This document shows positions 38,505-62,300 of a DNA stretch of 64,000 nt, piece after piece (the stretch's first letter is position 1; each line of letters opens with the position of its first letter). The notes below the pieces were generated by a model that saw only the letters and a list, made by a program, of their open reading frames with translations, did not search any database and was not told where the DNA came from. The stretch comes from an uncultured Planctomycetales bacterium (lineage in GTDB: Bacteria; Planctomycetota; Phycisphaerae; UBA1845; Fen-1342): assembly GCA_964638325.1 (NCBI GenBank), contig CAZWYT010000004.1, forward strand, positions 29,308-93,307, given 5' to 3'. The translations under genes were made by a program, and so were the position numbers.

Positions 38505-38579
38505 CGGGGCGTAGCTCAGTCTGGCTAGAGCGCGTGGTTTGGGTCCACGAGGTCGCAAGTTCGAGTCTTGTCGCCCCGA
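38505..38579 (+). tRNA. tRNA-Pro (anticodon TGG)
   Basis: Cloverleaf folded by hand: acceptor CGGGGCG/CGCCCCG, D-arm GCTC...GAGC, anticodon stem CGTGG/CCACG with loop TTTGGGT, T-arm GCAAG-TTCGAGT-CTTGT, discriminator A. No encoded CCA. Confidence 0.85.
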
Positions 38580-38761
38580 TTCAGAAGGTCGTTGTGAGCC
38601 CGAGGCTCACAGTGTTAATTCCGGTGCTGTCCCGGCGTGTGCCGCCAAGTTCCGCCGACGTGCAAAACCGCATCTGCCCAGAGTAGGTGGAGTTCCCTCA
38701 TGAACGCCCGTCGCGTGGCAAGCGCCTATCTTTTTCCGCAGGGTGGGCGGGCGGGCCCCTG

Positions 38762-39091
38762 CTACTCACCGCCGCGCCAGATTCGAACCGTGCTATCGCC
38801 TGAGCTCGAGATGATTCGCGAACCATCGGCGCTGATTGCGACCCCCGACAGCAGGTAGCCGTGACCGTGAAGGGCCGTGGCCTCCTCGCCGCTGGCCACG
38901 TCCCACACGCGCAACGTCCGATCGTCTCCGCCCGAGATGATGCGCGACCCGTCGGGACTGAATGCGAGGCAGCGGACCGCAGCGGCGTGCCCGCGCAGCG
39001 TGCAAACCTCAAGCCAGGAATCGCAAGCCCAGATCTTGATCGTGTTGTCGTCCGCGCCCGATGCGAGCCAACGGCCGGACGGCTTAGCCAC
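38762..39091 (-). pseudogene. orphan WD40-repeat fragment (about 2.5 blades), likely remnant of a Ser/Thr-kinase-WD40 gene
   Basis: 109-aa ORF with canonical WD40 units (GHAAAVRCLAFSPDGSRIISGGDDRTLRVWDV ... GHGYLLSGVAISADGSRIISSSGDSTVRIW) but no kinase or N-terminal domain. Resembles WD40 tail of CDS 59339..62821. Confidence 0.5.
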
Positions 39092-39436
39092 GGAACGTAC
39101 CGCGGCCTTGCCGCCTGCCTATGGTGCATGGCTATTTCGTGGCTCGTGGCAGTCAACATTCACCTGAGCCGGCTACCGGGCAGGGCACCATACGCCGTCA
39201 TAGCTTATTCTCCACGCACCTGGGAGAAAGACGAGAGCGAAGCGTTTAAGGACCTACCGTGCATGACGATCTGGACGAGCGGTTCCCAAGCAGGGACTCT
39301 GGAAGTCCGTGTATATCCCGCACTAACGCCCAAGATAGTACAGGAAGCACGAGAGCGCCTTGAGCAACTCGGATGCCAAGTAACGAAAGTTACGCTCAAG
39401 GGGCGCTGATGCACGGTATACTACACGTACTACGCG

Positions 39437-40618
39437 ATGGGTCACGTGGCGCACATTACGGTGAAGGACGTGGGCTACCCGACCTACAAAGACGTGTGCC
39501 TGCACTATGCGGACAACGAGACGCTGTGGTACGCCATGTGGCAGGAGTGGGACGAGCAGTACGGGCAGACGCATTACGACTGGCCGGCCTGCCCGGACGA
39601 GGATGACCCGAACCACCTCACGGTGCCGGACGCCTGGGAGTTCCGGTACGACAGCGGGCGGGAGCGCTACCTGGCCCGGCAGTGGGACACGCAGGGCTCC
39701 AACTATCCGCCGAACTGGACGGAGCTGGACGCGACCTGGACGGATTACCTGGGTGACGAGCCGTGGGGCGATTACGGCGTGACGCTGGATGCCAACGACA
39801 CGCCGGAGGTCACGGAACAGACGCGGTTCCTGGGCGGCCTGGGCATCCAGACCCAGGAAACTGTAGCACAGCCGCCCTCGGCTGTGTTGTTCCACGGCGA
39901 CCTCATCGGCTCGACGATGCTGCTGACGGATGGGGAGGGTGCGGTGGCCGGCTCGCCCACCAGTTATACGGCCTTCGGCGAGCAGGTGTGGCGCGACCCG
40001 AACAGCGCGGCGCACGTCGGCGGCCCGCTGCCGGCGGGCTATCCCCGCCACGCTTACGCCGGGGCGTGGGGGTACGAGTCCGGCCCGTGGGGTCAGGACC
40101 CGAACGAGGCGGCCAGCCCCGGCCCGCTGGTGCTGTATGGCGCGAATCCCGATCTTCCGCCGATCACGCTAATGCACGTGGGCGAACGCTGGTACCAGCC
40201 GGGGATCGGGCGGTTCATCCAGCGGGATCCGATTGGGCTGCGCGGCGGGCTGAACCTATACGCGTACTGCGCCAACAGGCCGGCCGCACGCGTTGACCCG
40301 TTCGGGCTCGCTGGCGCCTCTGATCCCGCGTTTGATTGGGAAATCCTCGGGGGGACGACCCTAGCCGGGGTGAATATCGGCCTCGGGTGGGGAGGAGTAG
40401 GTGCCATACCCGGGGGTATCATCGGCGCGACGACGTACGTTTCATACTGGGCGACATGGACGATTTGCGTCCGGAGTTGGGACATCGGGGCTAATCTGCG
40501 GCGCCTCAGCGAGCAGGAGGAGAAGAACCGTAAGTATCGCGAGACGCGCCCAGACGTGTTTCCGCCGATTCCGCCGAATCCTACGGACGGCCCCGTTCCT
40601 TGTGGACCGCACTACTGA
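39437..40618 (+). CDS. orphan Rhs/YD-repeat core C-terminal fragment with variable toxin tip (cassette 1)
   Basis: Contains the Rhs repeat-associated-core terminal hallmark ...RWYQPGIGRFIQRDPIGLRGGLNLYAYCANRPAARVDPFGL followed by a unique ~110-aa C-terminal domain. No YD-repeat shell upstream. Confidence 0.55.
   Translation: MGHVAHITVKDVGYPTYKDVCLHYADNETLWYAMWQEWDEQYGQTHYDWPACPDEDDPNHLTVPDAWEFRYDSGRERYLARQWDTQGSNYPPNWTELDATWTDYLGDEPWGDYGVTLDANDTPEVTEQTRFLGGLGIQTQETVAQPPSAVLFHGDLIGSTMLLTDGEGAVAGSPTSYTAFGEQVWRDPNSAAHVGGPLPAGYPRHAYAGAWGYESGPWGQDPNEAASPGPLVLYGANPDLPPITLMHVGERWYQPGIGRFIQRDPIGLRGGLNLYAYCANRPAARVDPFGLAGASDPAFDWEILGGTTLAGVNIGLGWGGVGAIPGGIIGATTYVSYWATWTICVRSWDIGANLRRLSEQEEKNRKYRETRPDVFPPIPPNPTDGPVPCGPHY
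39818..40230 (+). repeat. direct repeat copy A (~410 bp, ~90% identical to 41108..41520): conserved Rhs core-end coding segment
   Basis: Translated segments VTEQTRFLGGLG..QETVAQPPSAVLFHGDL..GSTMLLTDGEGAVAGSPTSYTAFGEQVWRDPNSAAHVGGPLPAGYPR..AYAGA.GYESGPWGQDPNEAASPGPLVL.GANPDLPPITLMHVG.RWYQPGIGRF.QRDPIG are near-identical in both cassettes. DNA read directly. Confidence 0.7.
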
Positions 40619-40718
40619 TAGCCCCCTGCTGCGGGCGGTCGCCCGCCAAAGGTGAACTCGAAAACGTCCGCATCGCTTGATTTGGTTAGTCGAGGCTGGT
40701 GACGTGGAGGGTTCTAAT

Positions 40719-41111
40719 ATGCTGCGGGAACTTCTGTGGGGCAGGATGCTTGAAGCCGATCTGCCGGGGATCGATGACCCGGGCGCACTGCAGGCAGTAC
40801 GGCAAGCGTGCCTACGTCGGTCGGCTTCCATCGGGAAGTTACTTCTCTGGGTTTGCGGTTTGGGCATCGCGGCCGGTGCACTATCAGAATGCGCAGGGCG
40901 CTTTGCGGGCGCGCCGGCATGGGGAAGCAAGCTGCTCTTCATGTGCGTGGTCGGCGCCGGGCTGGTTCCGCTGTCGCGCTGGCGACAGCGGCGCGCGAGG
41001 AGGTTGCTCCCGGACGTCCTTCGATCACTGGGACGATGCGCGCGTTGCGGGTACGATTTGCACGGGGCGGAGGTCTGCCCTGAATGTGCACAGGCGGCGA
41101 GCCGAGCGTGA
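40719..41111 (+). CDS. candidate immunity protein for cassette-1 toxin tip (small membrane protein with C-terminal CxxC...CxxC)
   Basis: Immediately downstream of cassette 1. Two TM-like segments, ends RCARCGYDLHGAEVCPECAQAA. Position is typical for Rhs immunity genes. No homology claim possible. Confidence 0.3.
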   Translation: MLRELLWGRMLEADLPGIDDPGALQAVRQACLRRSASIGKLLLWVCGLGIAAGALSECAGRFAGAPAWGSKLLFMCVVGAGLVPLSRWRQRRARRLLPDVLRSLGRCARCGYDLHGAEVCPECAQAASRA

Positions 41112-41905
41112 CCGAACAGACGCGGTTCCTGGGCGGCCTGGGCCTCCAGGGCCAGGAAACTGTAGCACAGCCGCCCTCGGCTGTGTTGTTCCACGGCGAT
41201 CTGACCGGCTCGACGATGCTGCTGACGGATGGGGAGGGTGCGGTGGCCGGCTCGCCCACCAGTTATACGGCCTTCGGCGAGCAGGTGTGGCGCGACCCGA
41301 ACAGCGCGGCCCACGTCGGCGGCCCGCTGCCGGCGGGCTATCCCCGCTACGCTTACGCCGGCGCGTACGGGTACGAGTCCGGCCCGTGGGGTCAGGACCC
41401 GAACGAAGCGGCCAGCCCCGGCCCGCTGGTGCTGCACGGCGCCAACCCCGACCTGCCGCCGATCACGCTCATGCACGTGGGCGCACGCTGGTACCAGCCG
41501 GGGATCGGGCGGTTTGTGCAGAGGGATCCGATTGGAATCGACGGCGGCGTCAACCTCTATGCATATGTGGGAAGTTGTCCGACCGCCACTGTCGACTCGG
41601 ACGGCTTGGGGGGCCAGGTGCCCGAAGGCCCTCGGATTTGGACCGGGCTACCACGCGACTGCAAAGGTTGGATTGAGCAGCCGCCACCGCCTGGGATGAG
41701 GTTCGGTTGGGATCCTGTGACCAGGACCTTCAAGTTGCTGCCGAAGACACCGGCCGTGGCCAAGGCGAGCATCTGCGTGCGCTTCTTACGACTACTGGGT
41801 ATACTTGGAAAGATGTTCGAGCCCTTTAATGTAATTTACGTAGACTGGCGACAATACGGGGGGCAGCCGCCGGAGTGGAACCCAGTGCCTCCCGTTTTGC
41901 TTTAG
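41084..41905 (+). CDS. orphan Rhs core-end fragment with different toxin tip (cassette 2; N-terminally truncated relative to cassette 1)
   Basis: Shares conserved core-end (…LYAYVGSCPTATVDSDGL) then diverges into a distinct C-terminal domain. Lacks the first ~130 aa present in cassette 1. Confidence 0.5.
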   Translation: MCTGGEPSVTEQTRFLGGLGLQGQETVAQPPSAVLFHGDLTGSTMLLTDGEGAVAGSPTSYTAFGEQVWRDPNSAAHVGGPLPAGYPRYAYAGAYGYESGPWGQDPNEAASPGPLVLHGANPDLPPITLMHVGARWYQPGIGRFVQRDPIGIDGGVNLYAYVGSCPTATVDSDGLGGQVPEGPRIWTGLPRDCKGWIEQPPPPGMRFGWDPVTRTFKLLPKTPAVAKASICVRFLRLLGILGKMFEPFNVIYVDWRQYGGQPPEWNPVPPVLL

Positions 41906-41931
41906 CGCGGGGATGCGGTGTCCTCGAGCCT

Positions 41932-42438
41932 ATGGAGGTCGCCATGATCAGATTGCTGCCACGCCGTGTATACGACCTGGATCGCCCAATACAGGAAACT
42001 GAGCTGGATCCAATGGACGAGACCTGGGTTGACGAGTTTTTCCGCCACACGCTGCAGTTCATGCTGACCGACGGTCTTTATGGCCTACACTGGTTCTACC
42101 ACGAAGCGGCAGACTGCGTCCGGTGCTGCCTGTGGAGCCCGGACCAGTCAGGGAGTGGCACGTGGCAGGAGCGCTGCCCAGTGAGCAGCACTGGCGGCCG
42201 CAAGTTGCTCCGAAAGCTGCGGCGCGATGCGCGAGTGAAGAGCCGAGATGGCAGCCGAATCTGGGGTGTAGTCTACTATAGGTGGCGTGGGCTCGTGGGG
42301 ACACTGAATCTCGATTCGCCACACGAGTGGGACGCACGCCTTTGGCGGGGCACGAAGCCATCGCCGGCCCTGTCGTATGAACTGGTATTCAACGGTCCGC
42401 CACCGGGTCCAAGCAACGGGCTCTCCTCCGCGTCATGA
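41932..42438 (+). CDS. candidate immunity protein for cassette-2 toxin tip
   Basis: ORF directly following cassette 2. Cys/Trp-rich (CVRCCLWSPDQSGSGTWQERCP). Ordinary composition. Confidence 0.3.
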   Translation: MEVAMIRLLPRRVYDLDRPIQETELDPMDETWVDEFFRHTLQFMLTDGLYGLHWFYHEAADCVRCCLWSPDQSGSGTWQERCPVSSTGGRKLLRKLRRDARVKSRDGSRIWGVVYYRWRGLVGTLNLDSPHEWDARLWRGTKPSPALSYELVFNGPPPGPSNGLSSAS

Positions 42439-42510
42439 AGACGAAGAGAACAACGCGACGGGGCCGATTCCTAACACGAGTACCACCTATACGCCGGCGG
42501 GGCGACCGGG

Positions 42511-42600
42511 CCGACGGTACACTACGCGTACCGGACCTCGGGCCACGTGGCCCACATCACGATCAAGGATGAGGGTCAGGACATCGTGAAGGACCTGGGC
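42511..42600 (+). repeat. third, truncated copy of the cassette 5' junction (GHVAHITIKDEGQD...), direct repeat of 39413..39500
   Basis: DNA 42511-42570 (ggtacactacgcgtaccggacctcgggccacgtggcccacatcacgatcaaggatgagggt) aligns with 39413-39470 (ggtatactacacgtactacgcgatgggtcacgtggcgcacattacggtgaaggacgtgggc). Brackets the cassette array. Confidence 0.55.
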
Positions 42601-42749
42601 GTTGAAAGAGGGTACAGGCACCGCCGGAAATCCGGTCGGCGCTACCGGGTGAGCCCTGGGCGGCGGAGCCAGTCCCCTTTTTCAACGCAGAAGATGGGCG
42701 TGGCGCTCGATCGGGAGCTCGCCGCGGGGCGCGCGACCGTCCACCAGTA

Positions 42750-44837
42750 TCAGCGCTTCCCTGCGGCTTCGTGCGCGCGGGCGATTACCTCCTCCTGCAC
42801 GTCGCGCGGCGCCTGCTTGTAGCGCGCAAAGTGCATGGAGAACGTGCCGCGCCCCTGCGTCACGCTGCGCAGATCGGTCGCATAGCCGAACATGTTCGCC
42901 AGCGGCACGTCGGCGCTGATGACCGTCACCGCACCACGCAACTCCGTGGCATGGATCAGGCCGCGGCGGGAACTGAGATCGCCGGCGACCGGTCCCTGCA
43001 GTGCAGTCGGCACCTCGACTTCGACCTTCATGATCGGCTCGAGAATCGCCGGTTTCGTCCGCGGATATGCGTCTTTGAACGCGTCGCGGGCCGCGATCTG
43101 AAAGGCAAGATCGGACGAGTCTACGGCGTGCGCCGTGCCGTCCTCGAGGACGACCTTCACGCGGATGACCTCGTACCCGGCCAGCGGGCCGTTCCGCCGC
43201 GCCTGCTGGAAGCCCTTGTCGCACGACGGGATGTACTCGGTGGGGATGCGCCCGCCGGTCACTTCGTTCGCGAACTCGTAGTCATTCTCGGCGTTCTCGG
43301 GCAGCGGCTCGATGCGCCCGATCACGTGGCCGTACTGGCCGGAGCCGCCGGTCTGCTTCTTGTGCTTGTAGTTGAATTCGGCGGCCTTGGTGGGCGCCTC
43401 GCGGTAGTTCACGCGCGGGGCGCCGGTCGTGACCGCGCAGCCGTACTCGCGGCGAATGCGTTCGACGTAGACTTCGAGCTGCAATTCGCCGACGCCGGAG
43501 ATGATCGTCTCCCCGCTTTCCGGGTCCGTGTGGACGTGGAAGGTCGGGTCCTCGCGCACGAAGCGCTGCAGGGCCTTGGCCAGCCGCTCGCGGTCGTTGT
43601 TCTTCACGGGCGCGACGGCCAGCGCGATGACCGGCTCCGGCGTTTGGATGTTCTCGAGCGCGTAGTTCACGCGGTCGTCGCAGAACGTGTCGCCCGAGGC
43701 GCAGTCCAAGCCGATGAACGCCACGATGTCTCCGGCGCCCGCCTCCTCCACGTCCTCGCGGTCGTTGGCGTGCATGCGGACCATGCGGCCGACGCGCGCC
43801 CCGCGGCGCAGCCGGGTGTTCCGCAGGACCCGGCCCTTGCTCAGCCGGCCCTGATAGATGCGCGTGTAGGTGAGCTGCCCGAAGCTCTCCTCGACGAGCT
43901 TGAAGGCCATGGCGACGACGGGCGCGTCCGGGTCCGCGGTGATCGCAACCTCGGCGCCGTCGTTATCGTTGTCCTTGGCGTAATAGACGCGGTCCAGCGG
44001 CGACGGCAGGAAGCGGACGATGGCATCGAGCAGAAGCTGTACGCCCTTGTTCCGGAAGGCCGAGCCCATCATGACGGGCACGATGTCGCGGCTGATCGTC
44101 AGCCGGCGAATGACCGTACGCAGCTTCTCGATCGGGACGGCCTGTCCGGCGAGCAGCCATTCCATCAACTCGTCGTCGTAGAGCGACAGCGTGTCGAGCA
44201 TGCCCTGCCGGGCGCGCTCCGCGGCCTCGCAGAGCTCCGCCGGAATCGACGCACGCCGAACCTGCTCGCCGTGGTCGCCGTCGAAATAGACGCCTTCCAT
44301 CGTCAGCAGGTCCACGACCCCGCGGTGATCGTTCTCCAGGCCGATGGGAATCTGGAGCGGCACGGCCTCGAGGCCCAGCTTCTCCTCGATCTGCTGAATC
44401 ACGCGCGCGGGGTCCGCGCCCACCCGGTCAAGCTTGTTGATGAACGCAATCCGCGGTACGCCGTAGCGCTTCATTTGGCCGTCGACGGTGAGCGATTGCG
44501 ACTGCACGCCGCCCACGCCGCAGAGCACGAGGATGGCCCCGTCGAGCACGCGCAGCGACCGTTCGACCTCGACCGTGAAGTCCACGTGCCCGGGCGTATC
44601 GATCAGGTTGATTTGGTGGTCAAGCCACGAGACCGTCGTCGCGGCCGACGTGATGGTGATGCCGCGCTCGCGTTCCAGCTCCATGTGGTCCATGACTGCG
44701 CCGCGCTCGCCGTCGTGGACCTCGCCCATGCGGTGGATACGCCCCGTGTAGTAGAGGATGCGCTCGGACAAGGTCGTCTTGCCCGAGTCGATGTGGGCCG
44801 AGATGCCGATGTTGCGAATGCACCTGATCGCGTTCAT
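42750..44837 (-). CDS. fusA: translation elongation factor G (stand-alone copy, possibly EF-G2-type)
   Basis: G1 [10 protein letters not shown]3 DTPGHVDF, G4 NKLD, full five-domain length 695 aa. Not adjacent to rpsL/rpsG/tuf in this window. Confidence 0.85.
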
Positions 44838-48437: not shown

Positions 48438-50225
48438 TCATCCGCCACCGCTCAGCAGCGCGACGAACGGGTTGATGTCGCCGAACGACACGGTGCCGTC
48501 GCCGTTGATGTCGGCGTTCAGGATCTCGCAGTCGGGAAACGCCGCCAAGTAGCCGGCCGGACTGCTGAGCGCGAGCACGAACGGGTTGATGTCCCCGAAA
48601 TCGATCGTCCCATCACAGTTCAAGTCGCCGGGCGGGCTCCACGTGAACGTGTCAATCTGCGCCAGGCTGTTGGTCGCGTCGTAGCCGGCGTTCAGAATGT
48701 ACGTCATGGAGTGGTCCAGGTAGGTGCGGAACGCGCTGTTCGGATCGTCGGGGTCGGCGCTGGGGTAGGGCCACGGCGGTGAGTAGCCGTTCGCCAGGAA
48801 CGCGGGGATGAGAATGTTCTTCACCGCCCAGATGTCGGTGGCGACGGGGTCCAGGCTCGCGATCAGCTCGTCCCGCCGGGTGGCGCCGGCATACGTCGTC
48901 CACGGGCCGTCGTACGGATTGGCGTTGATCCAGACGCAATCGAGGATGTTGAGGTTGGCCGGGCGGATCTCGCCCAGCAGCGCGCCGAGAATGCCGCGCG
49001 CGATGGCGCTATGGGAATTCGTGTTCAGCTCCCCGGTGACGACGCCCATGTAATGCTTCACGCAGGCCGTCGCGCCGTACGACGCATGGTGCGATTTCAG
49101 CACCGGCACGTTGATGAACTTGAGGTGCTCCAGGTCATACGTTCCGCGCAGCGGGCTCCACAGGCCGTATTTCAAGCTGATGTAGGTGCCGTAGCTGGTC
49201 CGGAACTTCGGGTACGAGATCCGGCCCTGGAGCTGCGGGTCGTACGGGTAGACGACGTAGCCGTTCTGCAGATTCCCCGCGGAGTACTCGGTGACACTGG
49301 TGGTGCGGATGCTCGTCCAGTCGAAGTGCGTGACGGGGTAGCCCTGCGACTGGAACCCTATGACCACGTCGTGCGGCGAGAGCGAGTGGTCCTGCGCGTT
49401 GTTGGCGGCCCGGTCGAAGTTCTCGACCGAGTTGAACTGGGCGTTCTCGCACACGACGACCTGCCCGGTGAAGGTGTCGGGATGATCGACGATACAACGG
49501 ATCAGGCCGCGCAGGAGGTCCGTGTTCGTGCCGCCGCGCTCGGGCCACTGATAGTTGATCTTGACGACCACCACGTCGTCGGCGGCGATGATTCCGTCGG
49601 GGCCCGCCAGTAGCGACTCATCAGGCGAGCGATAGAACTTCAGCCCGTTGCGGCCCATGAGCTTGAGGAGATCATCCAGGCCCACAAAGCGGTCGCCGAC
49701 CGGGTTCTGGGGGCAGTCCGTCACGTGGTAGAGCTGGGCGCGGTAGTCGCGCGGGGCGGCCCGCATGGGCAGGGGGGCCGCGCTGGCCCGGGTCAGATAG
49801 CCCCACGTGCCGAGCGTAGCAAAGAGCCCGAGTGCGGCGATGGCAACACCGACCGGCGTGCGCAGCACGGCCAGCGTCCGGCGCCAGGCCGCGATCACGG
49901 CGGCCACAAGCAGCCCGCCGAACGCCAGGGACGCGGTCGAAACGGCGGCCTGCTGACATGGGTAGGTGAGCCGGCTGGGTTTGGTGCCACTGCGGAGCAG
50001 CAGCCAGGCGAGCGCGAAAATCCCGCTGAGCAGCAGGTTGATGCGCAGCCAGCGCTGCAGGAAGCCCGCCGGCGGCTGGTGATGGGAATGCTGCCCTCGG
50101 TCAAGGCGGACGCTGTGCGGGCGCGGGTGGAAGTTCATGATCGCTCGTCTCCCCGTGGGTCGAATGACTCCACCAGTACACGGGCCCTCCGCGGTCGGGG
50201 TATTCCGGTTAAACCTACCGGCCAT
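48438..50225 (-). CDS. membrane-anchored DUF362-like protein with C-terminal tandem dockerin-like repeat
   Basis: N-terminal TM helices, central region resembling DUF362 (VVVKINYQWPERGGTNTDLL...VVVCENAQF...ILDCVWINANP...LDPVATDIWAVKNIL), C-terminus DLNCDGTIDFGDINPFVLALSSPAGYLAAFPDCEILNADINGDGTVSFGDINPFVALLSGGG*. Alternative start 50138. Confidence 0.55.
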   Translation of the reverse strand: MAGRFNRNTPTAEGPCTGGVIRPTGRRAIMNFHPRPHSVRLDRGQHSHHQPPAGFLQRWLRINLLLSGIFALAWLLLRSGTKPSRLTYPCQQAAVSTASLAFGGLLVAAVIAAWRRTLAVLRTPVGVAIAALGLFATLGTWGYLTRASAAPLPMRAAPRDYRAQLYHVTDCPQNPVGDRFVGLDDLLKLMGRNGLKFYRSPDESLLAGPDGIIAADDVVVVKINYQWPERGGTNTDLLRGLIRCIVDHPDTFTGQVVVCENAQFNSVENFDRAANNAQDHSLSPHDVVIGFQSQGYPVTHFDWTSIRTTSVTEYSAGNLQNGYVVYPYDPQLQGRISYPKFRTSYGTYISLKYGLWSPLRGTYDLEHLKFINVPVLKSHHASYGATACVKHYMGVVTGELNTNSHSAIARGILGALLGEIRPANLNILDCVWINANPYDGPWTTYAGATRRDELIASLDPVATDIWAVKNILIPAFLANGYSPPWPYPSADPDDPNSAFRTYLDHSMTYILNAGYDATNSLAQIDTFTWSPPGDLNCDGTIDFGDINPFVLALSSPAGYLAAFPDCEILNADINGDGTVSFGDINPFVALLSGGG

Positions 50226-50335
50226 TCTAGGAGGATGACCGCTTCGGCCACAAGCAAAAAAACCGGTCGCCTGTCGTGTCGCGTGATCGACAAACTCCCC
50301 TCTGTTCCCAGCCGGGAGAGGGGGGCCATGGGTCG

Positions 50336-51655
50336 TTACCCGCCGGTCAGCAGCGCCACAAACGGGTTGATGTCGCCGAAGTTCAACGTGCCGTCTTCAT
50401 TGATATCGCCGTCCATGATGTCGCAGTCTGGGAACGTGGCCTCATATGCGCTCGGGTTGGACAACGCCAGCACGAACGGGTTGATGTCGGCGAAGTTGAC
50501 GGCGCCGTCGCAGTTCAGGTCGCCGTAGGCCGGCGTCAGGCGGCAGGCGCGCCACTGGCCGTTGAGCACGCCGCAGCCGGCGATCTGGCCGCGATCGTTG
50601 ATGTCCAACGCCTGCGTAAGGTACCAGCCTGCGCCGCCGACGAGCGCGTCGTTCAGGACCGTCATGACGCCCCGGCGCCAGACGAACGCCAGCGCGGTAG
50701 AGTCATCAAACTGCAACGTCCATGGCGGGTTGTACATGTAGCCGCAGCCGACCACGGTTTCGCTGTTGTTGAGCCGGTAGGCCCGGCTGTAGGGTTTCCC
50801 GGGCGGGGTACCGAGATCGATGGCCTGGTTCCCGTCGTGGAAAAAGGCCCGGCTGCAACCCTCTCCCCCTGGGGGAGTCCAGACCCCGACGTATTGGTTG
50901 AAATCATTGATATCGGCAGTCCCGGTCGGATCGCCGAGACCCTCCAGTTGCCGTACGTCGTCGGGGTAGTTGGGGTCGTTGGGGTCCCAGCCCCATGCGC
51001 ACGCCACCGACACGGGAATTTCGAGTGAACACCCGACGATGACGCCCGACTGATTGATGCCATAGGCGTGCGCTTCGGGCCACGGCGGCAGTGGGTCAAG
51101 CAGCCGTAACGTCCATTGGCCGTTGAGCTTGTCCCACCGAGGGGCTTGCCCATCGTAGTTGCCAGTGCGCCGGCACGCCGCCCCCACGATGATCCCGTCG
51201 TCGTTGACGGCCAAGGCGCCGCTGGTGTCGCGGTCTGCCGGGGGCGGCAATTGTTCCAGGTGCGGCTGCGGATCGCGCTCCCAGACGAACGGCACCCACC
51301 GCCATCCGCCGCTGTAGATCTTCGCCTCGCCCACGATCTTCGTGCCATCGTTCGACGCGCCGTGGGGCCATGCGTCATACCAGCCGGCGAGTGTGCCGAG
51401 GTCCTCGGCCACACCGTTGGGATCCATAGGATCCCAGCGCGTCGCGTGCCCCACATAGTTGCTGTTGTCCGACGTGCCGGCCACCACACCGGCGGTGTCG
51501 ATCGTGCTGCCGAAGCTGCGTGGGTACGGCGACAGCGGCGGCAGCTCCTCGATCCAGTAGCGTTGCGCCAGGGCCGGTGCGACGGCGGCCAGGGCGACGA
51601 GCGCAGCGATCGCCAACCGACCGATACTCAATGAGTTGTGATTCGTGGGGTTCAT
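50336..51655 (-). CDS. secreted HAF-repeat protein with C-terminal tandem dockerin-like repeat
   Basis: Signal peptide (IGRLAIAALVALAAVAPALAQ). At least 6 HAF-type repeats (AHAYGINQSGVIVGCS, AYRLNNSETVVGCG, ALDINDRGQIAGCG, ALAVNDDGIIVGAA ...). C-terminus DLNCDGAVNFADINPFVLALSNPSAYEATFPDCDIMDGDINEDGTLNFGDINPFVALLTGG*. ORF 50336..52708 is a read-through artefact. Confidence 0.6.
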   Translation of the reverse strand: MNPTNHNSLSIGRLAIAALVALAAVAPALAQRYWIEELPPLSPYPRSFGSTIDTAGVVAGTSDNSNYVGHATRWDPMDPNGVAEDLGTLAGWYDAWPHGASNDGTKIVGEAKIYSGGWRWVPFVWERDPQPHLEQLPPPADRDTSGALAVNDDGIIVGAACRRTGNYDGQAPRWDKLNGQWTLRLLDPLPPWPEAHAYGINQSGVIVGCSLEIPVSVACAWGWDPNDPNYPDDVRQLEGLGDPTGTADINDFNQYVGVWTPPGGEGCSRAFFHDGNQAIDLGTPPGKPYSRAYRLNNSETVVGCGYMYNPPWTLQFDDSTALAFVWRRGVMTVLNDALVGGAGWYLTQALDINDRGQIAGCGVLNGQWRACRLTPAYGDLNCDGAVNFADINPFVLALSNPSAYEATFPDCDIMDGDINEDGTLNFGDINPFVALLTGG

Positions 51656-56294: not shown

Positions 56295-58478
56295 TCATCC
56301 GCCCGTCAGCAGCGCGACGAAGGGGTTGATGTCGCCGAAATTCACGCCGCCGTCGGCGTTGATGTCGGCGTTTAGGATGTCGCAATCCGGGAACGTGCTC
56401 GCGTATGCGGTCGGGTCGGCCAGCGCCAGCACAAACGGGTTGATGTCGCCGAAGTCGACCGCGCCGTCGCAGTTCAGGTCGCCGGGGAGCGCGACGATTT
56501 CGACGTGCGTCACGCGCAGCGCAGAATAGTCCCCCAGGCCGTGCTCGGGGTTCGCCCCGCGTACGCAGTAATAGTAGTCGCCCGCGATTCGTCCCGTGAT
56601 ATCGAACGAGGTCTCCGTGATGTCGCTGCCCAGCGTGACGATGTTCGCCCACGAGGCGACCGGGTGGATGTCATCCACGTAGAACCCCTGACCCACCGTG
56701 CTCGCGTCGCTCGTGTACCGGAACCGCAGGTAAATCGACTGGCCCGTGTACGGCGCCAGCGAGTGCGTCCTCTGCACCCAGGTGCCGCTCTGGCCCGTAA
56801 ACGCAGCGAGCAGGTCGTACTCGCGGCCGTCCGTGGACACCTCCACGAACGCCATGTCCCGCCGAAGCTGCAAGTCGTACCACACCCAGAAGCTGAGCGA
56901 GTCGCCCGCCACGACCGGCAGCGGAGCCGCGGTGGTCATGGCCGCGATCTGTCCATTGCCCGTCGGCGATGCGAAGCTGTGCGTGCCCGAGTGATAGCGG
57001 GCCGTCGTGATGGTCATGCCCTGCATGACCCACGCAGCGCTGCCCGATTCGGCCCCATCGGTCGACGCCGTCAACCCCGTCAGCTCCTGGAGCGCATAGT
57101 GGTCCGCCCCGGCGTCCGGATTCTGCTGCTGCCAGGAGACCGTGTAGTTGCCGTCAGCGTCGACCGCCGGCGTGGTCAGGAGCGGCGGCAAAACGTAGGG
57201 CGTCGTCTGACTGAGCACATTCGGCGCCTGCTGCAAGACGTACAGGGCGCCGAGCCAGTTCGCGTCCAGAATAGGCTGCAACTGGGACTCGGTCGGATGA
57301 AAGCTGTTCCCCATCTCGATCGTATAGGGCAGGGTGTTTTGCCCAAACTCATAGTAGCCGTACCCGTACACCCAGTCGATTGTCTCGCCGACGGTCGCAT
57401 AGTCGAGCGCCGACTGCATGGGCGTGTAGGTGCCGGTCCCGCCGTGCGTGATCTCTGTGGCCAGGCTCTGGCCGACGGAAACCAGTAGGGCATTGTCCGG
57501 CGTGGTTGCGGCGCTGTAGCCCCACGGCCAGAGCACGAGTCGGCCGTACGTGTGGTACGTGAGCGCGATCGCGACCCTGTTGACCTCAAAGAGGCCCTGG
57601 ATCGCCTGCGTCTCCAGCTCGGAAAACGGCGCCAGACCGCAGTAGGCTTCCTGCGCGGGATCATGCGTAGTCAAGCCGGCCCCAACTGAGCCCCAGGCCC
57701 CGCCCTTGTCGCCGTTGACCGAGCCGTCGTAATTGCGGTTCAAGTCAACGCCGACCGTGCCGAACTGGGGGAAGACGTGCCGGTTCTTGCGCCAGTCGTG
57801 CCCCTGATCATGGCAGTAAACATAGCCGTCCGGATTCATGCACGGGATGACCCAGATGCGGCGGTTATCGACCAGGTCGGCAATCGACGGGTCCGAGCCG
57901 TAGTTCGAAGTCAGCCGCGTGGCGATTTCCAGCCCCATCTCGACGCTGGGCCACTCGCGGGCGTGGTGCAACCCTAGGAACGCGACGCTGGGCTCACCCT
58001 CGTCCACCCCGGGGTTATCCGAGATCTCCAGGCACCAGATGTTGCGGCCCTCGTACGACTGGCCAAGCGAGGTGAGCTGCGTCATCGCCGGATAGCTCGC
58101 CGCCATCGTGCCGAGGATGCTCTCGACCTGCGGAAACGTGTGGTAGACGGCCCGCACTTCGCTGGCAGCCTGCTCCACGTCCTCGAGCACGACCTCAAAC
58201 GGGATGCCCGCCGCCACCAACTGCCGCCGCTCGTGGCCGGTCACCACCAGGTCGAGCGAGCGACCGGCGTCGACCGTGCCGGCCACGTCCCAGCTCGGCA
58301 GCGTCTGCTGGAGTCTGGTGCGTATGTCGGCATCGCTGACCCGCACGCGGACCAGACTCTTGGCCCCCTCCGCTACAGCCCTGTCAACGCCGTCGTCGAC
58401 AAACGACCCCGTCGTCGCCGCACTGGCAAGCCAGCCGCCAGCGGCGACTACGAAAACGAGACACAGTCGTGCGATCAT
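56295..58478 (-). CDS. secreted M14-family zinc carboxypeptidase with C-terminal tandem dockerin-like repeat
   Basis: Signal peptide MIARLCLVFVVAAGGWLASAA. Zn ligand motif LGLHHAREWPS (HxxE), NPDGYVY, RNYD. C-terminus PGDLNCDGAVDFGDINPFVLALADPTAYASTFPDCDILNADINADGGVNFGDINPFVALLTGG*. Confidence 0.75.
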   Translation of the reverse strand: MIARLCLVFVVAAGGWLASAATTGSFVDDGVDRAVAEGAKSLVRVRVSDADIRTRLQQTLPSWDVAGTVDAGRSLDLVVTGHERRQLVAAGIPFEVVLEDVEQAASEVRAVYHTFPQVESILGTMAASYPAMTQLTSLGQSYEGRNIWCLEISDNPGVDEGEPSVAFLGLHHAREWPSVEMGLEIATRLTSNYGSDPSIADLVDNRRIWVIPCMNPDGYVYCHDQGHDWRKNRHVFPQFGTVGVDLNRNYDGSVNGDKGGAWGSVGAGLTTHDPAQEAYCGLAPFSELETQAIQGLFEVNRVAIALTYHTYGRLVLWPWGYSAATTPDNALLVSVGQSLATEITHGGTGTYTPMQSALDYATVGETIDWVYGYGYYEFGQNTLPYTIEMGNSFHPTESQLQPILDANWLGALYVLQQAPNVLSQTTPYVLPPLLTTPAVDADGNYTVSWQQQNPDAGADHYALQELTGLTASTDGAESGSAAWVMQGMTITTARYHSGTHSFASPTGNGQIAAMTTAAPLPVVAGDSLSFWVWYDLQLRRDMAFVEVSTDGREYDLLAAFTGQSGTWVQRTHSLAPYTGQSIYLRFRYTSDASTVGQGFYVDDIHPVASWANIVTLGSDITETSFDITGRIAGDYYYCVRGANPEHGLGDYSALRVTHVEIVALPGDLNCDGAVDFGDINPFVLALADPTAYASTFPDCDILNADINADGGVNFGDINPFVALLTGG

Positions 58479-58829
58479 TGCTTCCCTCCTCCCGCTAGGG
58501 ACACGGATAAGAACAAAACCGCCTCGCGGATAGCCACCTCGCTCGTGCGCTGTAAGTCGAGATTTCCCATTTACCGAGCCTCTCACAACCACTTTACGCA
58601 AAACGGTCGCTCGACTGCAAGCGAGTGTCGGCGGTCCGGCCTGGAAGCCTTGGTTCTCAGCGGCTGAGCCCGTGAATCTCACTTGGTCGGCGCCTGGAAA
58701 CGAGGGTTCCGCCGCCTCGCCTCTCGGCGCCAGCTACACCGCACACATCGTGGCCCGTGGCGAGGAACGCAGCGCCCGGGAGCGTGTCCCCGGCTATCGC
58801 GCGGGGCCTGTCAGCGGCGGTGGGCCGTG

Positions 58830-59338: not shown

Positions 59339-62300
59339 CTACGGACCTTCGTTGGGCGGGCTGCGAAACCGCGCGATCTGCTCCGCGTAGCGGCGTACGT
59401 CTGCTTCCAAGGTTGCGTTTGTGGCCAGGGCTGTCAGCACACGCCCAGCCGTCGCCGGCTCGGTGAACAATTGGTCAAGCAACTGCTCGGCGGCAACGCG
59501 GGCGCGGCGCTGCGCGAGGACGGCCGCGTCCGGCCCGGTCGTTTCCCACAGGCGGATGCACTTCTCGCCGGTGGCGAGCCATTGACCGTCCCGGCTGAAA
59601 GCGACGCAGAAGGGGTAGTCTTGGTGCGCACGGAGCACCAGCACGGTTTCGGTGCTGGCTGCATCCCACAGTCGCAGCGTGTGGTCGTAGGAAACCGAGG
59701 CGAGCCGCGTGCCGTCCGGGCTGAACGTCACGTTGGCCACGACGTCGGTGTGCCCCCGAAGCGTCGCGATTTCACGCTCCTGCCCCACGTCCCACAACTT
59801 CAGCGTGCCGTCGCGCGAGGCCGACACCAGTTGCTGTCCGTCCGGCCGATAGGCTACGCTCAGCACTTCTCCGGCATGCGCCGCGCGCGCGGTCGTGGGC
59901 TCGCCCGTCCGCACATTCCAGAACTCTACGCTCCCGGTGGTTGCCCCGGAGGCGAGTTGCTCGCCGTCGGGGCGAAATGCCAATGCCGTTAGGGCTTGGC
60001 GGGCGCTGCTCAGGGTGCGCACTTCCGATCGCGTCCCCAGATCCCACAGCTTGATCGTGCCGTCTTCTGATGCCGTGGCCAGGGTGCGGCCATCTGGGGA
60101 GAAAGCGGCGGCGGTGATGCCCCGTTCGTGCGCGACAAACGACCCGCGTGCCTCGCCGGTTTCCGCCCCCCAGAGTCGAACCGTCCGATCGTGCGAAGCG
60201 GAGGCGATCAACGCGCCATCCGGGCCATAAGCCACGGCGGAGACGGCGGACTTGTGACCGTGAAGCGCAAGCAACCCGGCGCCGGAGGACACGTCCCAGA
60301 CGCGTACCACGGCGTCCTCGCCGCCGCTGACGAGGCGTTTGGCGTCGGGCGAGATGGCGAGCGTCCAGATCCCGCGGCTATCGTGACCACGCAGCCGCGT
60401 GAAATCCCGACGAAGCCGGGGGTCCCACAGCCGCACGGTTTGGTCGTCGGAGCCGGTCACGAGACGTGTCCCGTCGGGCGAGAACGCAGGCGCCCAGACG
60501 ATCCCCTCATGCCCCACGAACACAGCCAGTTCGATGGCGGCGCGAACATCCCATAGGCGGAGGGTGCCATCCTCGGAGGTGGACGCCAGCACGGTCCCGT
60601 CCGGGCCGTACGCCAAGCCGCGCACTCGGGCGGTGTGACCCGCCAGACTCTCCCGCAGTTCCGCAGATCGGGCATCCCAGAGCCGGACGACGCCATCGTG
60701 CGAACCGGTCGCCAGCGTGCTTCCATCGGGCGCGAATACGACCGGCCAGGAATGCACGAAGTCCCAGTCGCGCGTGTTCGGGGCCACGGCGATCTCGAGC
60801 TGTTGCTCGCCGCCCGGCAGCGCCCAGACCCGCACGCGGTTGTCGCGGCAACTCGTCGCCAGGCGCCGGCCATCCGGACTGAACGCGGCGGAGTAGACCC
60901 AATTCGGGTGTTTCAGCGACACCAACTGTTGTCCTGTGTTCGCGCTCCACAGCGCGGCGTGGCTATCAACCGAAGCAGTTGCCAGCGACGCGCCATCGGG
61001 GCTGAAGTGCACGTCGTTCACGGGTGCGCGATGGGCCTTTAGCGTTTGCAGCAGTCCGCCGCGCTGTGCGTCCCAGATGAATACGAGCCCGTTCGTCGCG
61101 CCCGCCGCCAGCAGTCTGCCATCCGCGCTTCGGGCGAGGCTTCCGAATTCGGCACCGTCGGCGCGCAGCGTCTCCCGGCAAGTGCCGTCGGCGACGTCCC
61201 AGTAGCGGATCGTTCCGTCATGCGACGCCGAGAACACTGTCGCACCGTCGGCGCTGAACGCCACGCCCCAAACGCGGCCCGTGTGCCCGTGGAAGGTCAT
61301 CAAACTCGCATCGAGCTCGGCGACGAGATACCGCCATTCCCAGTTGCGCAGATGAACCGGCGCCAGCTCGAGCTGTTGCCGCGCCGTGCGGACATCCTTG
61401 GCCTCCAGAGCGGACTGGGCGGCGGCAATGTTGGCCACATAGGCGCGGAACTCGGCCACGGCCCCGCGCTGCTCAGCCAGAGCTTCGGCCTGAAACGCGC
61501 GGTTTCGATCGGCCTCGGCGGCACGGCGCTGGGCCGTTGCCTGGACGTAGCCGCGCCACGTGCCAATCAATCCCAGTGTCAGCGCTGCAAAGGCCGTCAG
61601 TACACCGGCGACGAGCGGCCGGTTGCGGCGCGCGAACTTGCGCAACTGGTAGAACGTCGTCGCCGGCCGGGCCAGGATCGGCTGATCCGCCAGATACCGC
61701 CGGATATCCTCGGCGAGCCCCGACGCGGACTGATAGCGCCGGTTCTTGTCCTTCTCCAGCGCCTTGGCAACGATCGTGGCCAGATCGCCACGGAAGACAC
61801 GGTTAATGGTGCCCAGCGACGGCGGCTCTTCTTCCGTGATCGTGCGGGCGGCCTGTGGAATCGTCTTGGTCGACACGTCAAACGGAACGCGGCCCGCGAG
61901 CAGCTCGTAGCCAATGACGCCCAGCGCGTACACATCCGACCGTGTGTCGAGCTGTCGCGGATCGCCCGAGATTTGCTCGGGGCTCATGTACGCGAGCGTC
62001 CCGATGAGCTGTCCGGGCAGGGTCTCGGGCACCGTCGCGCGCAGGTCGGCGTCGGTGGCCCGGGCCACGCCGAAGTCGAGAATCTTGGGTTGCCCGCTGG
62101 CGTCGACGAGGATGTTGGCCGGCTTGAGATCCCGGTGAATGACCCCCTTCTGGTGGGCGTGCTGGACGGCGTCGCAGACGTTGGCGAGCAGCTCCAGTCG
62201 CTGGCGAATATCAAGGTGCCTGGCCTCGACGTATTCCGTGAGCGGCCGGCCGAGGATGAGCTCCATCGCAAAGAACGGCTGTGGGCCGAATCCGGCCTCC

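What the first reader, a model, noticed from the sequence alone, without database searches (positions are those of the whole stretch)
38505..42600. tRNA-Pro-adjacent mini-island: WD40 fragment plus two orphan Rhs toxin-tip/immunity cassettes bounded by direct repeats
A compact island sits immediately 3' of tRNA-Pro(TGG). It holds a truncated WD40 ORF on the minus strand and two plus-strand Rhs core-end fragments. The fragments share a ~410-bp segment of ~90% identity (39818-40230 vs 41108-41520), including the DPxGL core terminus, and then diverge into unrelated C-terminal domains. Each is followed by a small ORF in the position of an immunity gene. The 5' junction of cassette 1 (39413-39500, GHVAHITVKD...) recurs as a truncated third copy at 42511-42600. 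This looks like an orphan Rhs-CT/immunity array built by homologous recombination at the conserved core end. No full-length YD-repeat Rhs shell lies upstream. Instead the array abuts a tRNA, which suggests integration or decay of a larger element. The 39323..40051 antisense ORF is an artefact.
Basis: seen in the sequence. Interest (0 to 1): 0.65.

Follow-up and report, generated by a model that had tools for sequence, protein, structure and literature searches.

The report
Stranded Rhs toxin-tip and immunity cassettes
Between a tRNA-Pro gene and the EF-G gene of a Phycisphaerae-like bacterium sit two 5'-truncated Rhs toxin genes, each followed by an immunity gene, plus broken pieces of two more cassettes; this is an ordinary "orphan" toxin/immunity array, unusual mainly because no full-length Rhs gene lies next to it.

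Summary
tRNA-Pro(TGG) lies at 38505-38579. A 109-aa WD40 fragment lies on the minus strand. Two plus-strand ORFs (39437-40618 and 41084-41905) both match the RHS repeat-associated core domain.

- **Shared core.** The two ORFs share 429 bp at 93.7% identity. Identity then falls to 56% about 25 codons before the core ends, and the C-terminal tips are unrelated.
- **Composition.** Third-position GC falls at the same point, from 0.85 to 0.68.
- **Cassette 1.** CT1 is a glycine-rich hydrophobic tip. Imm1 has two membrane helices and a zinc ribbon. The same toxin/immunity pairing recurs downstream of a 1684-aa full-length Rhs in another metagenome.
- **Cassette 2.** CT2 and Imm2 have no detectable relatives.
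- **Third junction copy.** It is real and codes one YD repeat (TVxYxY..GHVAHITxKD). It is the stub of a third cassette, not an att-type repeat.
- **tRNA.** No integrase and no second copy of the tRNA 3' end were found, so tRNA-targeted integration is unsupported.

Relatives in Phycisphaerae form classic "main rhs plus orphans" arrays. This locus is a detached fragment of such an array: a new member of a known kind, of modest interest. Side observations are cassette 5' ends that recur across genomes and arrays that end in a stub.

The parts
38505..38579 (+). tRNA-Pro (anticodon TGG). Left neighbour of the island, with no sign that it served as an integration site.
   Evidence: ARAGORN; Rfam RF00005 62.7 bits; no second copy of its last 16-45 nt anywhere in the window.
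38762..39115 (-). 3' remnant of a WD40-repeat gene, about 2.5 blades (ORF 38762-39091, with WD-like sequence to about 39115). Its 5' part is missing, so the event that placed or trimmed the array also truncated this gene.
   Evidence: Pfam WD40 E=9e-30. The frame extension meets a stop at about 39123. Host-like GC3 of 0.79. The best paralogue is the kinase-WD40 gene at 59339-62857, 45% identity, and no matching 5' half lies on the other side of the island.
39120..39409 (+). Left junction segment with low GC (58%) and a weak ORF tail (39131-39409) whose stop codon abuts the start of cassette 1. Inferred to be a remnant of the immunity gene of a lost upstream cassette ('cassette 0'). Unproven.
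   Evidence: Composition; GC3 of 0.58; frame reading ...KVTLKGR* followed directly by CTVYYTY; no Pfam hit; no homologue in the related loci.
39413..40618 (+). Cassette 1 Rhs fragment (ORF 39437-40618, 393 aa). It holds the last YD repeats (39413-39802), the Rhs-associated core (39803-40309) and toxin tip CT1 (40310-40618). CT1 is glycine-rich and hydrophobic and ends in RPDVFPP...CGPHY.
   Evidence: TIGR03696 E=1e-16 over aa 217-291. Aligns to residues 1282-1574 of a 1684-aa full-length Rhs. CT1 homologues sit at the C-termini of P0006, P0009 and P0079. GC3 is 0.84-0.91 in the YD and core parts and 0.68 in CT1.
40719..41111 (+). Imm1, the candidate immunity protein for CT1. It has two hydrophobic helices, an Arg-rich linker and a C-terminal CxxCGY...CPEC zinc ribbon. 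Its last codons and stop lie inside the first bases of cassette 2.
   Evidence: The gene directly downstream of the CT1-like orphan P0006 in L006 is a homologue: 32% identity over 122 aa, E=8e-13. Hydropathy and motif scan. Alignment A4 shows the invariant pattern C..CGY....CPEC. No Pfam, NCBIfam or PADLOC hit.
41102..41905 (+). Cassette 2 Rhs fragment (ORF 41084-41905, 273 aa). It is more deeply truncated: core only (41102-41608), then toxin tip CT2 (41609-41905), which has no relatives.
   Evidence: TIGR03696 E=2e-15. 93.7% nt identity to cassette 1 over 41108-41536. CT2 gave no true homologue among 1.84 billion representatives, nothing in the word-indexed search and nothing in PDB sequences. 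The AF2 model has pLDDT 50.
41932..42438 (+). Imm2, the candidate immunity protein for CT2. It is soluble (no hydrophobic segment) and has no detectable relatives.
   Evidence: Position directly after CT2. The only database match is itself (P0121). No PDB match. AF2 model pLDDT 38. GC3 of 0.71, like CT2 at 0.68. Hydropathy.
42514..42600 (+). Stub of a third cassette: the same YD-repeat 5' end as cassette 1 (TVHYAYRTSGHVAHITIKDEGQDIVKDLG), broken off after about 29 codons.
   Evidence: Maps to residues 1282-1303 of the full-length relative. Homology ends where the inverted repeat 42599-42626 / 42661-42688 begins.
42599..42688 (.). Hairpin (28-nt arms) downstream of the minus-strand EF-G gene (42750-44837). 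Probably the EF-G terminator, and the right edge of the island.
   Evidence: Inverted repeat I1; EF-G domains in Pfam.

Best explanation
The 3.5-kb stretch 39120-42600 is a detached piece of an Rhs 'orphan' toxin-tip/immunity array of a family common in Phycisphaerae (Planctomycetota).

In a complete locus, a full-length Rhs of about 1700 aa carries one C-terminal toxin, and its immunity gene follows. The full-length relative seen here has a signal-peptide-like N-terminus, a dockerin-like segment, DUF6531, a YD-repeat shell and the Rhs-associated core. Downstream lie 5'-truncated copies of the gene's end, each with a different toxin tip and its own immunity gene.

This window has only such copies. 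Cassette 1 keeps the last ~290 residues before its tip (equivalent to residues 1282-1574 of the full-length relative) and carries CT1. CT1 is probably a membrane-inserting glycine-zipper toxin, paired with the membrane protein Imm1. Cassette 2 keeps only the core and carries CT2 with Imm2, both without relatives. Broken ends of a cassette 0 and a cassette 3 flank them.

The truncated toxin genes lack a shell and an export signal, so they cannot be delivered as they stand. Two functions are inferred and not shown. The immunity genes would protect the cell against neighbours that deploy these toxins. The tips would form a reserve that homologous recombination through the 429-bp conserved core could graft onto a full-length rhs elsewhere in the genome.

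The array probably reached this housekeeping locus in one of two ways. A fragment of a donor array was pasted in by illegitimate recombination, or flanking deletions removed a main rhs. Either event cut the WD40 gene on the left and cassette 3 on the right.
For: **Shown**
- Both ORFs match the Rhs-associated core.
- They align to the C-terminal part of a 1684-aa full-length Rhs, and nothing else in the window does.
- 184 homologues were found, named RHS repeat-associated by their sources where named, several from Phycisphaerae.
- Related loci show main rhs plus orphans plus small genes: L006 and RAS1. L004 has at least 8 core copies in one orientation.
- The two window cores are 93.7% identical in DNA over 429 bp, yet at most 70% identical in protein to any outside relative. 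This indicates recent duplication or gene conversion within this genome.
- Identity breaks sharply to 56% about 25 codons before the core ends. GC3 falls there from 0.84-0.91 to 0.68-0.71 through the tips and immunity genes, against 0.81-0.90 in host genes. This is a mosaic junction.
- The CT1/Imm1 pairing is conserved in L006.
- Imm1-type proteins (membrane helices plus zinc ribbon) follow Rhs tips at 7 places in 6 loci.
- There is no integrase and no tRNA repeat, and the flanks are housekeeping genes.
- The WD40 gene lacks its 5' half, and that half is not on the other side of the island. The event was therefore a replacement or deletion, not a simple insertion.

**From the literature**
- Orphan rhs-CT genes are displaced fragments that lack initiation and export signals.
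- They can be activated by recombination with the main gene through a 522-bp, 95%-identical region (PMC3967940).
Against: - No full-length rhs sharing the core was found for this genome. The best non-self hit is 62% identical and comes from another assembly. A recombination partner is therefore assumed, not shown.
- No expression evidence exists for any gene here, and the promoter scan found nothing (it does not cover planctomycete promoters).
- The toxicity of CT1 and CT2 and the protection by Imm1 and Imm2 are untested.
- CT1 has no significant Pfam match (Gly-zipper_Omp only E=2.1).
- CT2 and Imm2 could not be assigned any fold.
- Rhs2 has a degenerate DSDGL in place of DPxGL.
- The identity of the 'cassette 0' remnant rests on position alone.
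Confidence: 0.8

Rival explanations
1. Inert debris. The cassettes are decaying leftovers of a deleted rhs locus. Neither the toxins nor the immunity genes do anything now.
For: - Both ends of the array are broken, and the WD40 neighbour is a fragment.
- No main rhs lies in the window.
- Rhs2's DPxGL motif is degenerate.
- CT2 and Imm2 have no relatives.
- No promoter-like site was found.
Against: - All four ORFs are intact: 393, 130, 273 and 168 codons in a 65% GC background.
- The differences between the two cores are mostly synonymous, 15 against 9.
- Imm1 keeps every invariant residue of its family.
- The core GC3 is fully host-adapted.
Confidence: 0.2
2. Internally expressed toxin-antitoxin pairs. 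The truncated Rhs genes are translated from their own start codons and act inside the cell, held in check by the immunity proteins. This has been reported for the Salmonella orphan rhs.
For: - Rhs1 opens with ATG exactly at the cassette boundary, replacing the Thr/Ser codon of the 'TGHV' motif. The same is seen in P0065 and P0074.
- Rhs2 has an ATG 6 codons before its homology starts.
- Precedent: PMC7043789.
Against: - The boundary motif naturally contains GTG codons, so a gene caller will always find a start there.
- There is no expression evidence.
- CT1 looks like a membrane toxin, and its benefit as an internal TA module is unclear.
- The array architecture of relatives argues for delivery-linked polymorphic toxins.
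Confidence: 0.12
3. A tRNA-targeted integrative island. An element carrying the cassettes inserted site-specifically at the 3' end of tRNA-Pro.
For: - The array lies adjacent to tRNA-Pro.
- GC is lower in parts of the island.
Against: - There is no integrase or recombinase ORF in 38580-42700.
- There is no repeat of the tRNA 3' end in 64 kb.
- The host-like WD40 fragment sits between the tRNA and the array.
- Five of six related loci have no tRNA, and the sixth has two about 5 kb from its Rhs core.
- The low GC is confined to the tips and immunity genes, not the whole island.
Confidence: 0.04

Closest known systems
Enterobacterial orphan rhs-CT/rhsI modules, e.g. Salmonella Typhimurium LT2 STM0292 (Poole et al. 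2011, PMC3150448; Koskiniemi et al. 2014, PMC3967940)
   Same: - 5'-truncated gene fragments that keep part of the conserved core.
- Each has a different C-terminal toxin and a small downstream immunity gene.
- A block of several hundred bp at about 94-95% identity is available for homologous recombination: 429 bp here, 522 bp in LT2.
   Different: - There the orphans lie directly downstream of the main rhs and are T6SS-linked.
- Here no main rhs lies within 38 kb upstream or 21 kb downstream.
- The high-identity block was shown only between the two orphans.
- The family's full-length member has a signal-peptide-like N-terminus and a dockerin-like segment, not PAAR.
Main-plus-orphan Rhs arrays of the same family in Phycisphaerae: RAS1 (GCA_007859745.1, locus L003) and metagenome scaffold L006
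   Same: - The same protein family, 35-54% identity over the YD and core parts.
- The same cassette grammar.
- The same CT1 and Imm1 families in L006.
- The same Imm1-type zinc-ribbon membrane proteins.
- RAS1, like this window, ends its array in a truncated cassette stub.
   Different: Those arrays start with a long shell gene: 1684 aa in L006, and 856 aa plus a 349-aa continuation in RAS1. The window array is headless.
Solitary orphan cassette in assembly GCA_040961635.1 (L005, protein P0002), the closest relative of Rhs1 at 62% identity
   Same: - A headless cassette in a non-rhs context.
- The same 5' boundary (RSVYYTYWTTGHVAHITVKD).
- A hydrophobic glycine-rich tip.
- An Imm1-type immunity gene downstream.
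   Different: It is a single cassette, it sits next to an IS110 transposase, and it has no tRNA and no terminal stub.
Other polymorphic-toxin orphan arrays: cdiA-CT/cdiI orphans (PMC3150448) and Neisseria MafB alternative C-terminal cassettes (PMC4287609)
   Same: The logic is the same: silent 5'-truncated toxin tips with cognate immunity genes, stored downstream and exchangeable by recombination.
   Different: The delivery proteins and conserved pre-toxin motifs differ (VENN or MafB against the Rhs core and DPxGL). The resemblance is of mechanism only.
Glycine-zipper membrane-depolarising effectors with membrane immunity proteins, e.g. T6SS Tse4/Ssp6-type and the CdiA-CT(EC93) ionophore. Recalled from general knowledge and not tested here.
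   Same: CT1 has a run of GxxxG-type repeats in a hydrophobic segment, and its partner Imm1 has two membrane helices.
   Different: There is no sequence or profile match to any such family. This is a functional lead only.

Membership tests
Rhs / YD-repeat polymorphic toxins | RHS repeat-associated core domain (TIGR03696) ending in PxxxxDPxGL | tested here: met
   Rhs1 scores E=1e-16 over aa 217-291 and ends in VDPFGL. Rhs2 scores E=2e-15 over aa 101-175 but ends in a degenerate VDSDGL.
Rhs / YD-repeat polymorphic toxins | Long YD-repeat shell (hundreds of residues; PF05593 / PF25023) that encloses the toxin | tested here: not met
   Neither ORF has a Pfam RHS_repeat hit. Only the last ~290 residues before the tip (Rhs1) or the core alone (Rhs2) are present. 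No shell lies elsewhere in the window. These are fragments of Rhs genes, not complete Rhs proteins.
Rhs / YD-repeat polymorphic toxins | N-terminal delivery or export domain (PAAR, signal peptide and the like) | tested here: not met
   Rhs1 starts MGHVAHITVKD inside a YD repeat, and Rhs2 starts 6 codons before the core. The full-length relative has a signal-peptide-like N-terminus, a dockerin-like segment and DUF6531.
Rhs / YD-repeat polymorphic toxins | Variable C-terminal toxin followed by a cognate immunity gene | tested here: met
   The tips are unrelated beyond the core. The CT1-like tip of P0006 is followed by an Imm1 homologue in L006. For CT2/Imm2 the evidence is position only. Toxicity and immunity themselves cannot be tested with these tools.
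Orphan rhs-CT/rhsI module (sense of Poole 2011 and Koskiniemi 2014) | 5'-truncated fragment that keeps part of the conserved region and lacks export signals | tested here: met
   Definition taken from PMC3967940.
Orphan rhs-CT/rhsI module (sense of Poole 2011 and Koskiniemi 2014) | Located downstream of a full-length 'main' rhs in the same locus | tested here: not met
   No shell-coding sequence lies in the 64-kb window. Upstream are a tRNA, a WD40 fragment and housekeeping genes.
Orphan rhs-CT/rhsI module (sense of Poole 2011 and Koskiniemi 2014) | Near-identical stretch shared with a main rhs, allowing recombinational activation | not testable with these tools
   The rest of the source genome could not be retrieved. 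Only orphan-to-orphan identity is shown, 93.7% over 429 bp. No other protein in the 5.8-billion set exceeds 62% identity to Rhs1.
tRNA-integrated genomic island | Integrase gene, plus a direct repeat of the tRNA 3' end at the far boundary | tested here: not met
   No recombinase domain occurs in any island ORF. No second copy of the last 16-45 nt of tRNA-Pro lies in the window.
Curated glycine-zipper or bacteriocin families (Pfam Gly-zipper_Omp, Gly-zipper_YMGG, Bacteriocin_IIc) | Significant profile match | tested here: not met
   The best E-values among six CT1-family members are 1.8-2.1. No PDB sequence match reaches significance.

The most novel reading that the evidence does not exclude
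In this Phycisphaerae Rhs family the toxin-tip cassettes may behave as discrete, transferable units with a fixed 5' end. A short 5' stub left at the end of an array may serve as the right-hand homology arm. Cassettes could then be swapped in by double crossover, or inserted and excised as circles, even at loci with no main rhs.

The observations behind this reading are as follows.
- Five cassettes from three sources start within about 5 nt of the same point (R[ST]VYYTY..GHVAHITVKD), with unrelated sequence upstream. The sources are this window (two cassettes), L004 (two) and L005 (one).
- Two of these sources, the window and L005, are headless arrays in ordinary chromosomal contexts.
- Three arrays end in a truncated stub: the window, RAS1 and L004. 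The stub has the same 5' boundary as an upstream cassette, and in RAS1 the repeat includes the non-coding spacer.

Shared descent of one cassette lineage, plus random truncation, explains the same facts more simply.
Probability: 0.15. Interest if true: 0.6.

Novelty: new member of a known kind. Interest (0 to 1): 0.3.

Why it matters
Orphan Rhs arrays are well described in enterobacteria, so the finding adds no new principle. It has four modest points of value.

1. It documents the same cassette logic in Phycisphaerae (Planctomycetota). There, the one full-length relative whose N-terminus was examined (L006) looks Sec-exported and dockerin-bearing, not T6SS/PAAR-linked.
2. It yields one conserved toxin/immunity family that can be tested: the CT1 glycine-zipper tip with the Imm1 membrane zinc-ribbon protein.
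3. It yields one pair, CT2 and Imm2, with no relatives among 1.8 billion representative proteins.
4. It is an array stranded away from any main rhs, with a clean 94%-to-56% mosaic junction. That makes it a convenient case for asking whether headless arrays are kept for immunity alone.

Tried and rejected
- **Source contig.** Exact-protein look-ups for Rhs1, P0001 and EF-G found nothing on record. Cluster look-up gave no accessions. Only a 1180-bp Logan contig identical to 41377-42556 was found.
- **Genome-collection scan with Rhs1.** It returned two distant loci from one Phycisphaerae MAG, both at contig ends. The source species is apparently not among the representatives.
- **Metagenome scan with the shared core.** It was swamped by generic Rhs, many from human-gut assemblies, with at most 61% identity over short core segments and 47% for the only near-full-length match, and no close relative. 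This was a poor use of the single scan.
- **CT2 and Imm2.** The word-indexed searches found nothing or only the query itself. The exhaustive HMMER search for CT2 gave only two spurious hits to repeat proteins. PDB sequence searches were empty. Single-sequence AlphaFold models had pLDDT 50 and 38, too poor for fold search, so none was run.
- **CT1.** There was no significant Pfam or PDB match. 'Glycine-zipper membrane toxin' remains a reading of the sequence, not a classification.
- **PADLOC.** No defence-system hits.
- **Promoter and terminator scan.** No informative site in the island.
- **Rfam.** Only the tRNA was found.
- **tRNA att-site hypothesis.** Rejected.
- **Simple insertion into the WD40 gene.** Rejected, because the missing 5' half is not on the far side of the island.

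Full report
**What is in the sequence**

The region lies in a high-GC stretch (about 67%) of ordinary housekeeping genes. Upstream, on the minus strand, are an adenylosuccinate-lyase-like gene, a Cys/Met PLP enzyme and an amidohydrolase. Downstream, also on the minus strand, is EF-G at 42750-44837. tRNA-Pro(TGG) sits at 38505-38579. After it comes a 109-aa minus-strand ORF (38762-39091) made of about 2.5 WD40 blades (Pfam E=9e-30). WD-like sequence continues to about 39115 and then meets a stop. A propeller needs six or more blades, so this is the 3' remnant of a gene. Its best paralogue is the kinase-WD40 gene at 59339-62857 (45% identity).

Two plus-strand ORFs follow: 39437-40618 (Rhs1, 393 aa) and 41084-41905 (Rhs2, 273 aa). 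Both match the RHS repeat-associated core domain TIGR03696, E=1e-16 and 2e-15. Each is followed by a small ORF: Imm1 at 40719-41111 and Imm2 at 41932-42438.

**The repeats**

At a constant offset of 1299 nt, 39809-40237 and 41108-41536 are 402/429 = 93.7% identical, and 150/171 residues are identical. The codon differences are mostly synonymous, 15 against 9. Left of this block the sequences are unrelated, because cassette 2 simply begins there. Right of it, identity drops to 56% over the last 78 nt of the core, although the proteins still align: DPIGLRGGLNLYAYCANRPAARVDPFGL against DPIGIDGGVNLYAYVGSCPTATVDSDGL. After that the tips are unrelated.

Third-position GC changes at the same place. 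It is 0.84-0.91 in the YD and core parts, the same as host genes (0.81-0.90). It is 0.68-0.71 in CT1, Imm1, CT2 and Imm2. This is the mosaic signature expected if tip-plus-immunity modules of foreign origin were joined to a resident core by recombination. The two cores are far closer to each other than to any outside relative (at most 70% protein identity). They have therefore been duplicated or homogenised recently within this genome.

The antisense ORF 39323-40051 has GC1 0.85 and GC3 0.65, the mirror image of the true frame, and is an artefact.

**The third junction copy**

39413-39477 and 42514-42578 share 47/65 nt. In frame they read TVYYTYYAMGHVAHITVKDVG and TVHYAYRTSGHVAHITIKDEG. In relatives this is one conserved YD repeat (RTVRYTYYxTGHVSNITIKDE). 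Both copies align from residue 1282 of a 1684-aa full-length Rhs. The second copy ends after about 29 codons, exactly where the 28-nt-arm hairpin downstream of EF-G begins (42599). It is therefore the stub of a third cassette, not an att-like repeat bounding the island.

At the left end, a low-GC3 ORF tail (39131-39409) stops immediately before cassette 1. By position it may be the remnant of an earlier cassette's immunity gene, but nothing else supports that.

**What the family looks like elsewhere**

A search of 5.8 billion proteins gave 184 homologues. The best 120 are all 231-688 aa. Where named, their sources call them RHS repeat-associated proteins, several from Phycisphaerae. Longer members extend N-terminally into canonical YD repeats. 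The genomic contexts explain the short lengths.

- **L006 (metagenome scaffold).** A 1684-aa Rhs is followed by a small gene and three orphans of 694, 592 and 714 aa, each with a small downstream gene. The 1684-aa protein has a signal-peptide-like N-terminus, a dockerin-like segment, a below-threshold match to DUF6531 (23.6 bits against a 24.1 cut-off) and RHS repeats, with no PAAR.
- **Phycisphaerae RAS1.** An interrupted shell gene is followed by two orphans with immunity genes.
- **L004 (27-kb contig).** It carries at least eight core copies in one orientation.
- **L005.** The closest relative of Rhs1 (P0002, 62% identity) is a solitary cassette between a DUF5698 gene and an IS110 transposase.

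The window array is therefore an ordinary member of an orphan-rich family, but it has no head.

**Toxins and immunity**

CT1 (102 aa) has a DPxFxW start, a hydrophobic glycine-rich stretch with four GxxxG repeats and an invariant Cys in xCV. It then has WDIG, a charged helix and RPDVFPP...CGPHY. The same tip ends P0006, P0009 and P0079.

In L006 the gene directly after P0006 is a homologue of Imm1: 32% identity over 122 aa, E=8e-13. Imm1-type proteins have two hydrophobic helices, an Arg-rich linker and an invariant C..CGY....CPEC motif. They follow Rhs tips at seven places in six loci. A membrane immunity protein beside a glycine-zipper tip suggests a membrane-targeting toxin. This is an inference, because no curated family matches.

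CT2 (98 aa) and Imm2 (168 aa, soluble) have no relatives in either protein search and none among PDB sequences. Their single-sequence models are too poor to use (pLDDT 50 and 38). Their roles rest on position and on sharing the foreign-like composition.

**How it most likely works**

Rhs1 and Rhs2 lack the shell and any export domain, so they cannot be delivered as they stand (shown). By analogy with enterobacterial orphans, two roles are likely. The immunity genes would protect against neighbours carrying these toxins. The tips would be a reserve that recombination through the conserved core can fuse to a full-length rhs. In Salmonella a 522-bp, 95%-identical stretch does exactly this (PMC3967940).

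Here only orphan-to-orphan identity is shown. A main rhs partner was not found, and the rest of the genome could not be retrieved. Internal, TA-like expression, as reported for the Salmonella orphan (PMC7043789), cannot be excluded. Rhs1 does open with ATG exactly at the cassette boundary.

**How it got here**

There is no integrase and no second copy of the tRNA 3' end. Five of six related loci have no tRNA, and the sixth has two about 5 kb from its Rhs core. tRNA-targeted integration is therefore unsupported.

The WD40 gene's missing 5' half is not on the far side of the island, so this was not a simple insertion. Two routes remain. A roughly 3.5-kb piece of a donor array, cut inside cassette 0 and cassette 3, replaced local DNA by illegitimate recombination. 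Or deletions on both sides removed a resident main rhs and the rest of cassette 3. I cannot tell these apart.

**Side observations**

- Five cassettes from three sources begin within about 5 nt of the same point, with unrelated sequence upstream.
- ORF starts across the family cluster there and again near WTDYLG / TEQTRYL, the start of cassette 2.
- Three arrays end in a truncated stub whose 5' boundary equals that of an upstream cassette: the window, RAS1 and L004. In RAS1 the repeat includes the non-coding spacer.
- Shared descent of one cassette lineage, plus truncation, is the simple explanation. A discrete transferable cassette with the stub as a homology arm is the more novel one. I give it about 15%.

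**Verdict**

The orphan-array interpretation is supported. The 'bounded by direct repeats' and tRNA-integration parts are not. This is a new member of a known kind, of modest interest (0.3).

Noticed in passing
window 39413 and 42514; L004 about 9935 and 13162; L005 about 1960: Five orphan cassettes from three different sources begin within about 5 nt of the same point (R[ST]VYYTY..GHVAHITVKD), and the sequence upstream of that point is unrelated in each. Across 120 homologues, ORF starts also cluster at this motif and again near WTDYLG / TEQTRYL, where cassette 2 starts.
   Followed up: partly
window 42514-42600; L003 (RAS1) about 14186-14437; L004 13162-13446: Three arrays end in a truncated stub of a cassette whose 5' boundary is the same as that of an upstream cassette. 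In RAS1 the repeat also includes the non-coding spacer (SRR[LP]GFVLEAQRCAGGPE) ahead of the Rhs homology.
   Followed up: partly
window 41037; L003 11921 and 1247(-); L004 4686; L005 3577; L006 9826 and 12628: There is a recurrent family of small proteins with two membrane helices, an Arg-rich linker and an invariant C..CGY....CPEC zinc ribbon. They sit immediately downstream of Rhs toxin tips at 7 places in 6 loci, after tips that are not all alike. No Pfam, NCBIfam or PADLOC model matches.
   Followed up: partly
window 56298-56579, 50237-50533, 48444-48683 and 4755-4988 (all minus strand): The C-terminal ends of four large minus-strand genes, among them the M14 carboxypeptidase at 56295-58682, match the dockerin-like GDxNxDGxVN segment found in three long Rhs relatives of this family (near the N-terminus of the L006 full-length protein, internal in the RAS1 1057-aa and L006 714-aa proteins), up to 59% identity and E=6e-18. 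This may be a shared surface-anchoring or sorting module in this organism.
   Followed up: no
L006 1366-6420: The one intact full-length Rhs seen for this family (1684 aa) has a signal-peptide-like N-terminus, a dockerin-like repeat and a below-threshold match to DUF6531, with no PAAR. This suggests Sec export and not T6SS delivery in these Phycisphaerae.
   Followed up: partly
L007 (Logan contig ERR3804376_288637) = window 41377-42556: A public short-read contig is 100% identical to this stretch. Its left end falls in the duplicated core, as expected. Its right end falls inside the cassette-3 stub, although the two stub copies in the window share only 9-nt exact words. That may mean another near-identical copy in that sample, possibly a main rhs, or merely low coverage.
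   Followed up: no
window 39437; proteins P0065 and P0074: The ATG that opens Rhs1 replaces the Thr/Ser codon of the conserved 'TGHV' motif. Two orphans of another sub-lineage also start MGHVSNIT at the same codon. This could be chance or selection for a start codon at the boundary.
   Followed up: no
window 41095-41111: The last codons and the stop of Imm1 lie inside the first bases of cassette 2 (GTGACC, which codes V-T of VTEQ). The Imm1 tail after its zinc ribbon was therefore probably rewritten by the junction that created cassette 2.
   Followed up: no
window 59339-62857 (minus strand): A 1172-aa protein with an N-terminal Ser/Thr kinase domain and many WD40 repeats (Pfam matched 10 stretches) is the closest paralogue of the WD40 fragment beside the tRNA.
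   Followed up: no
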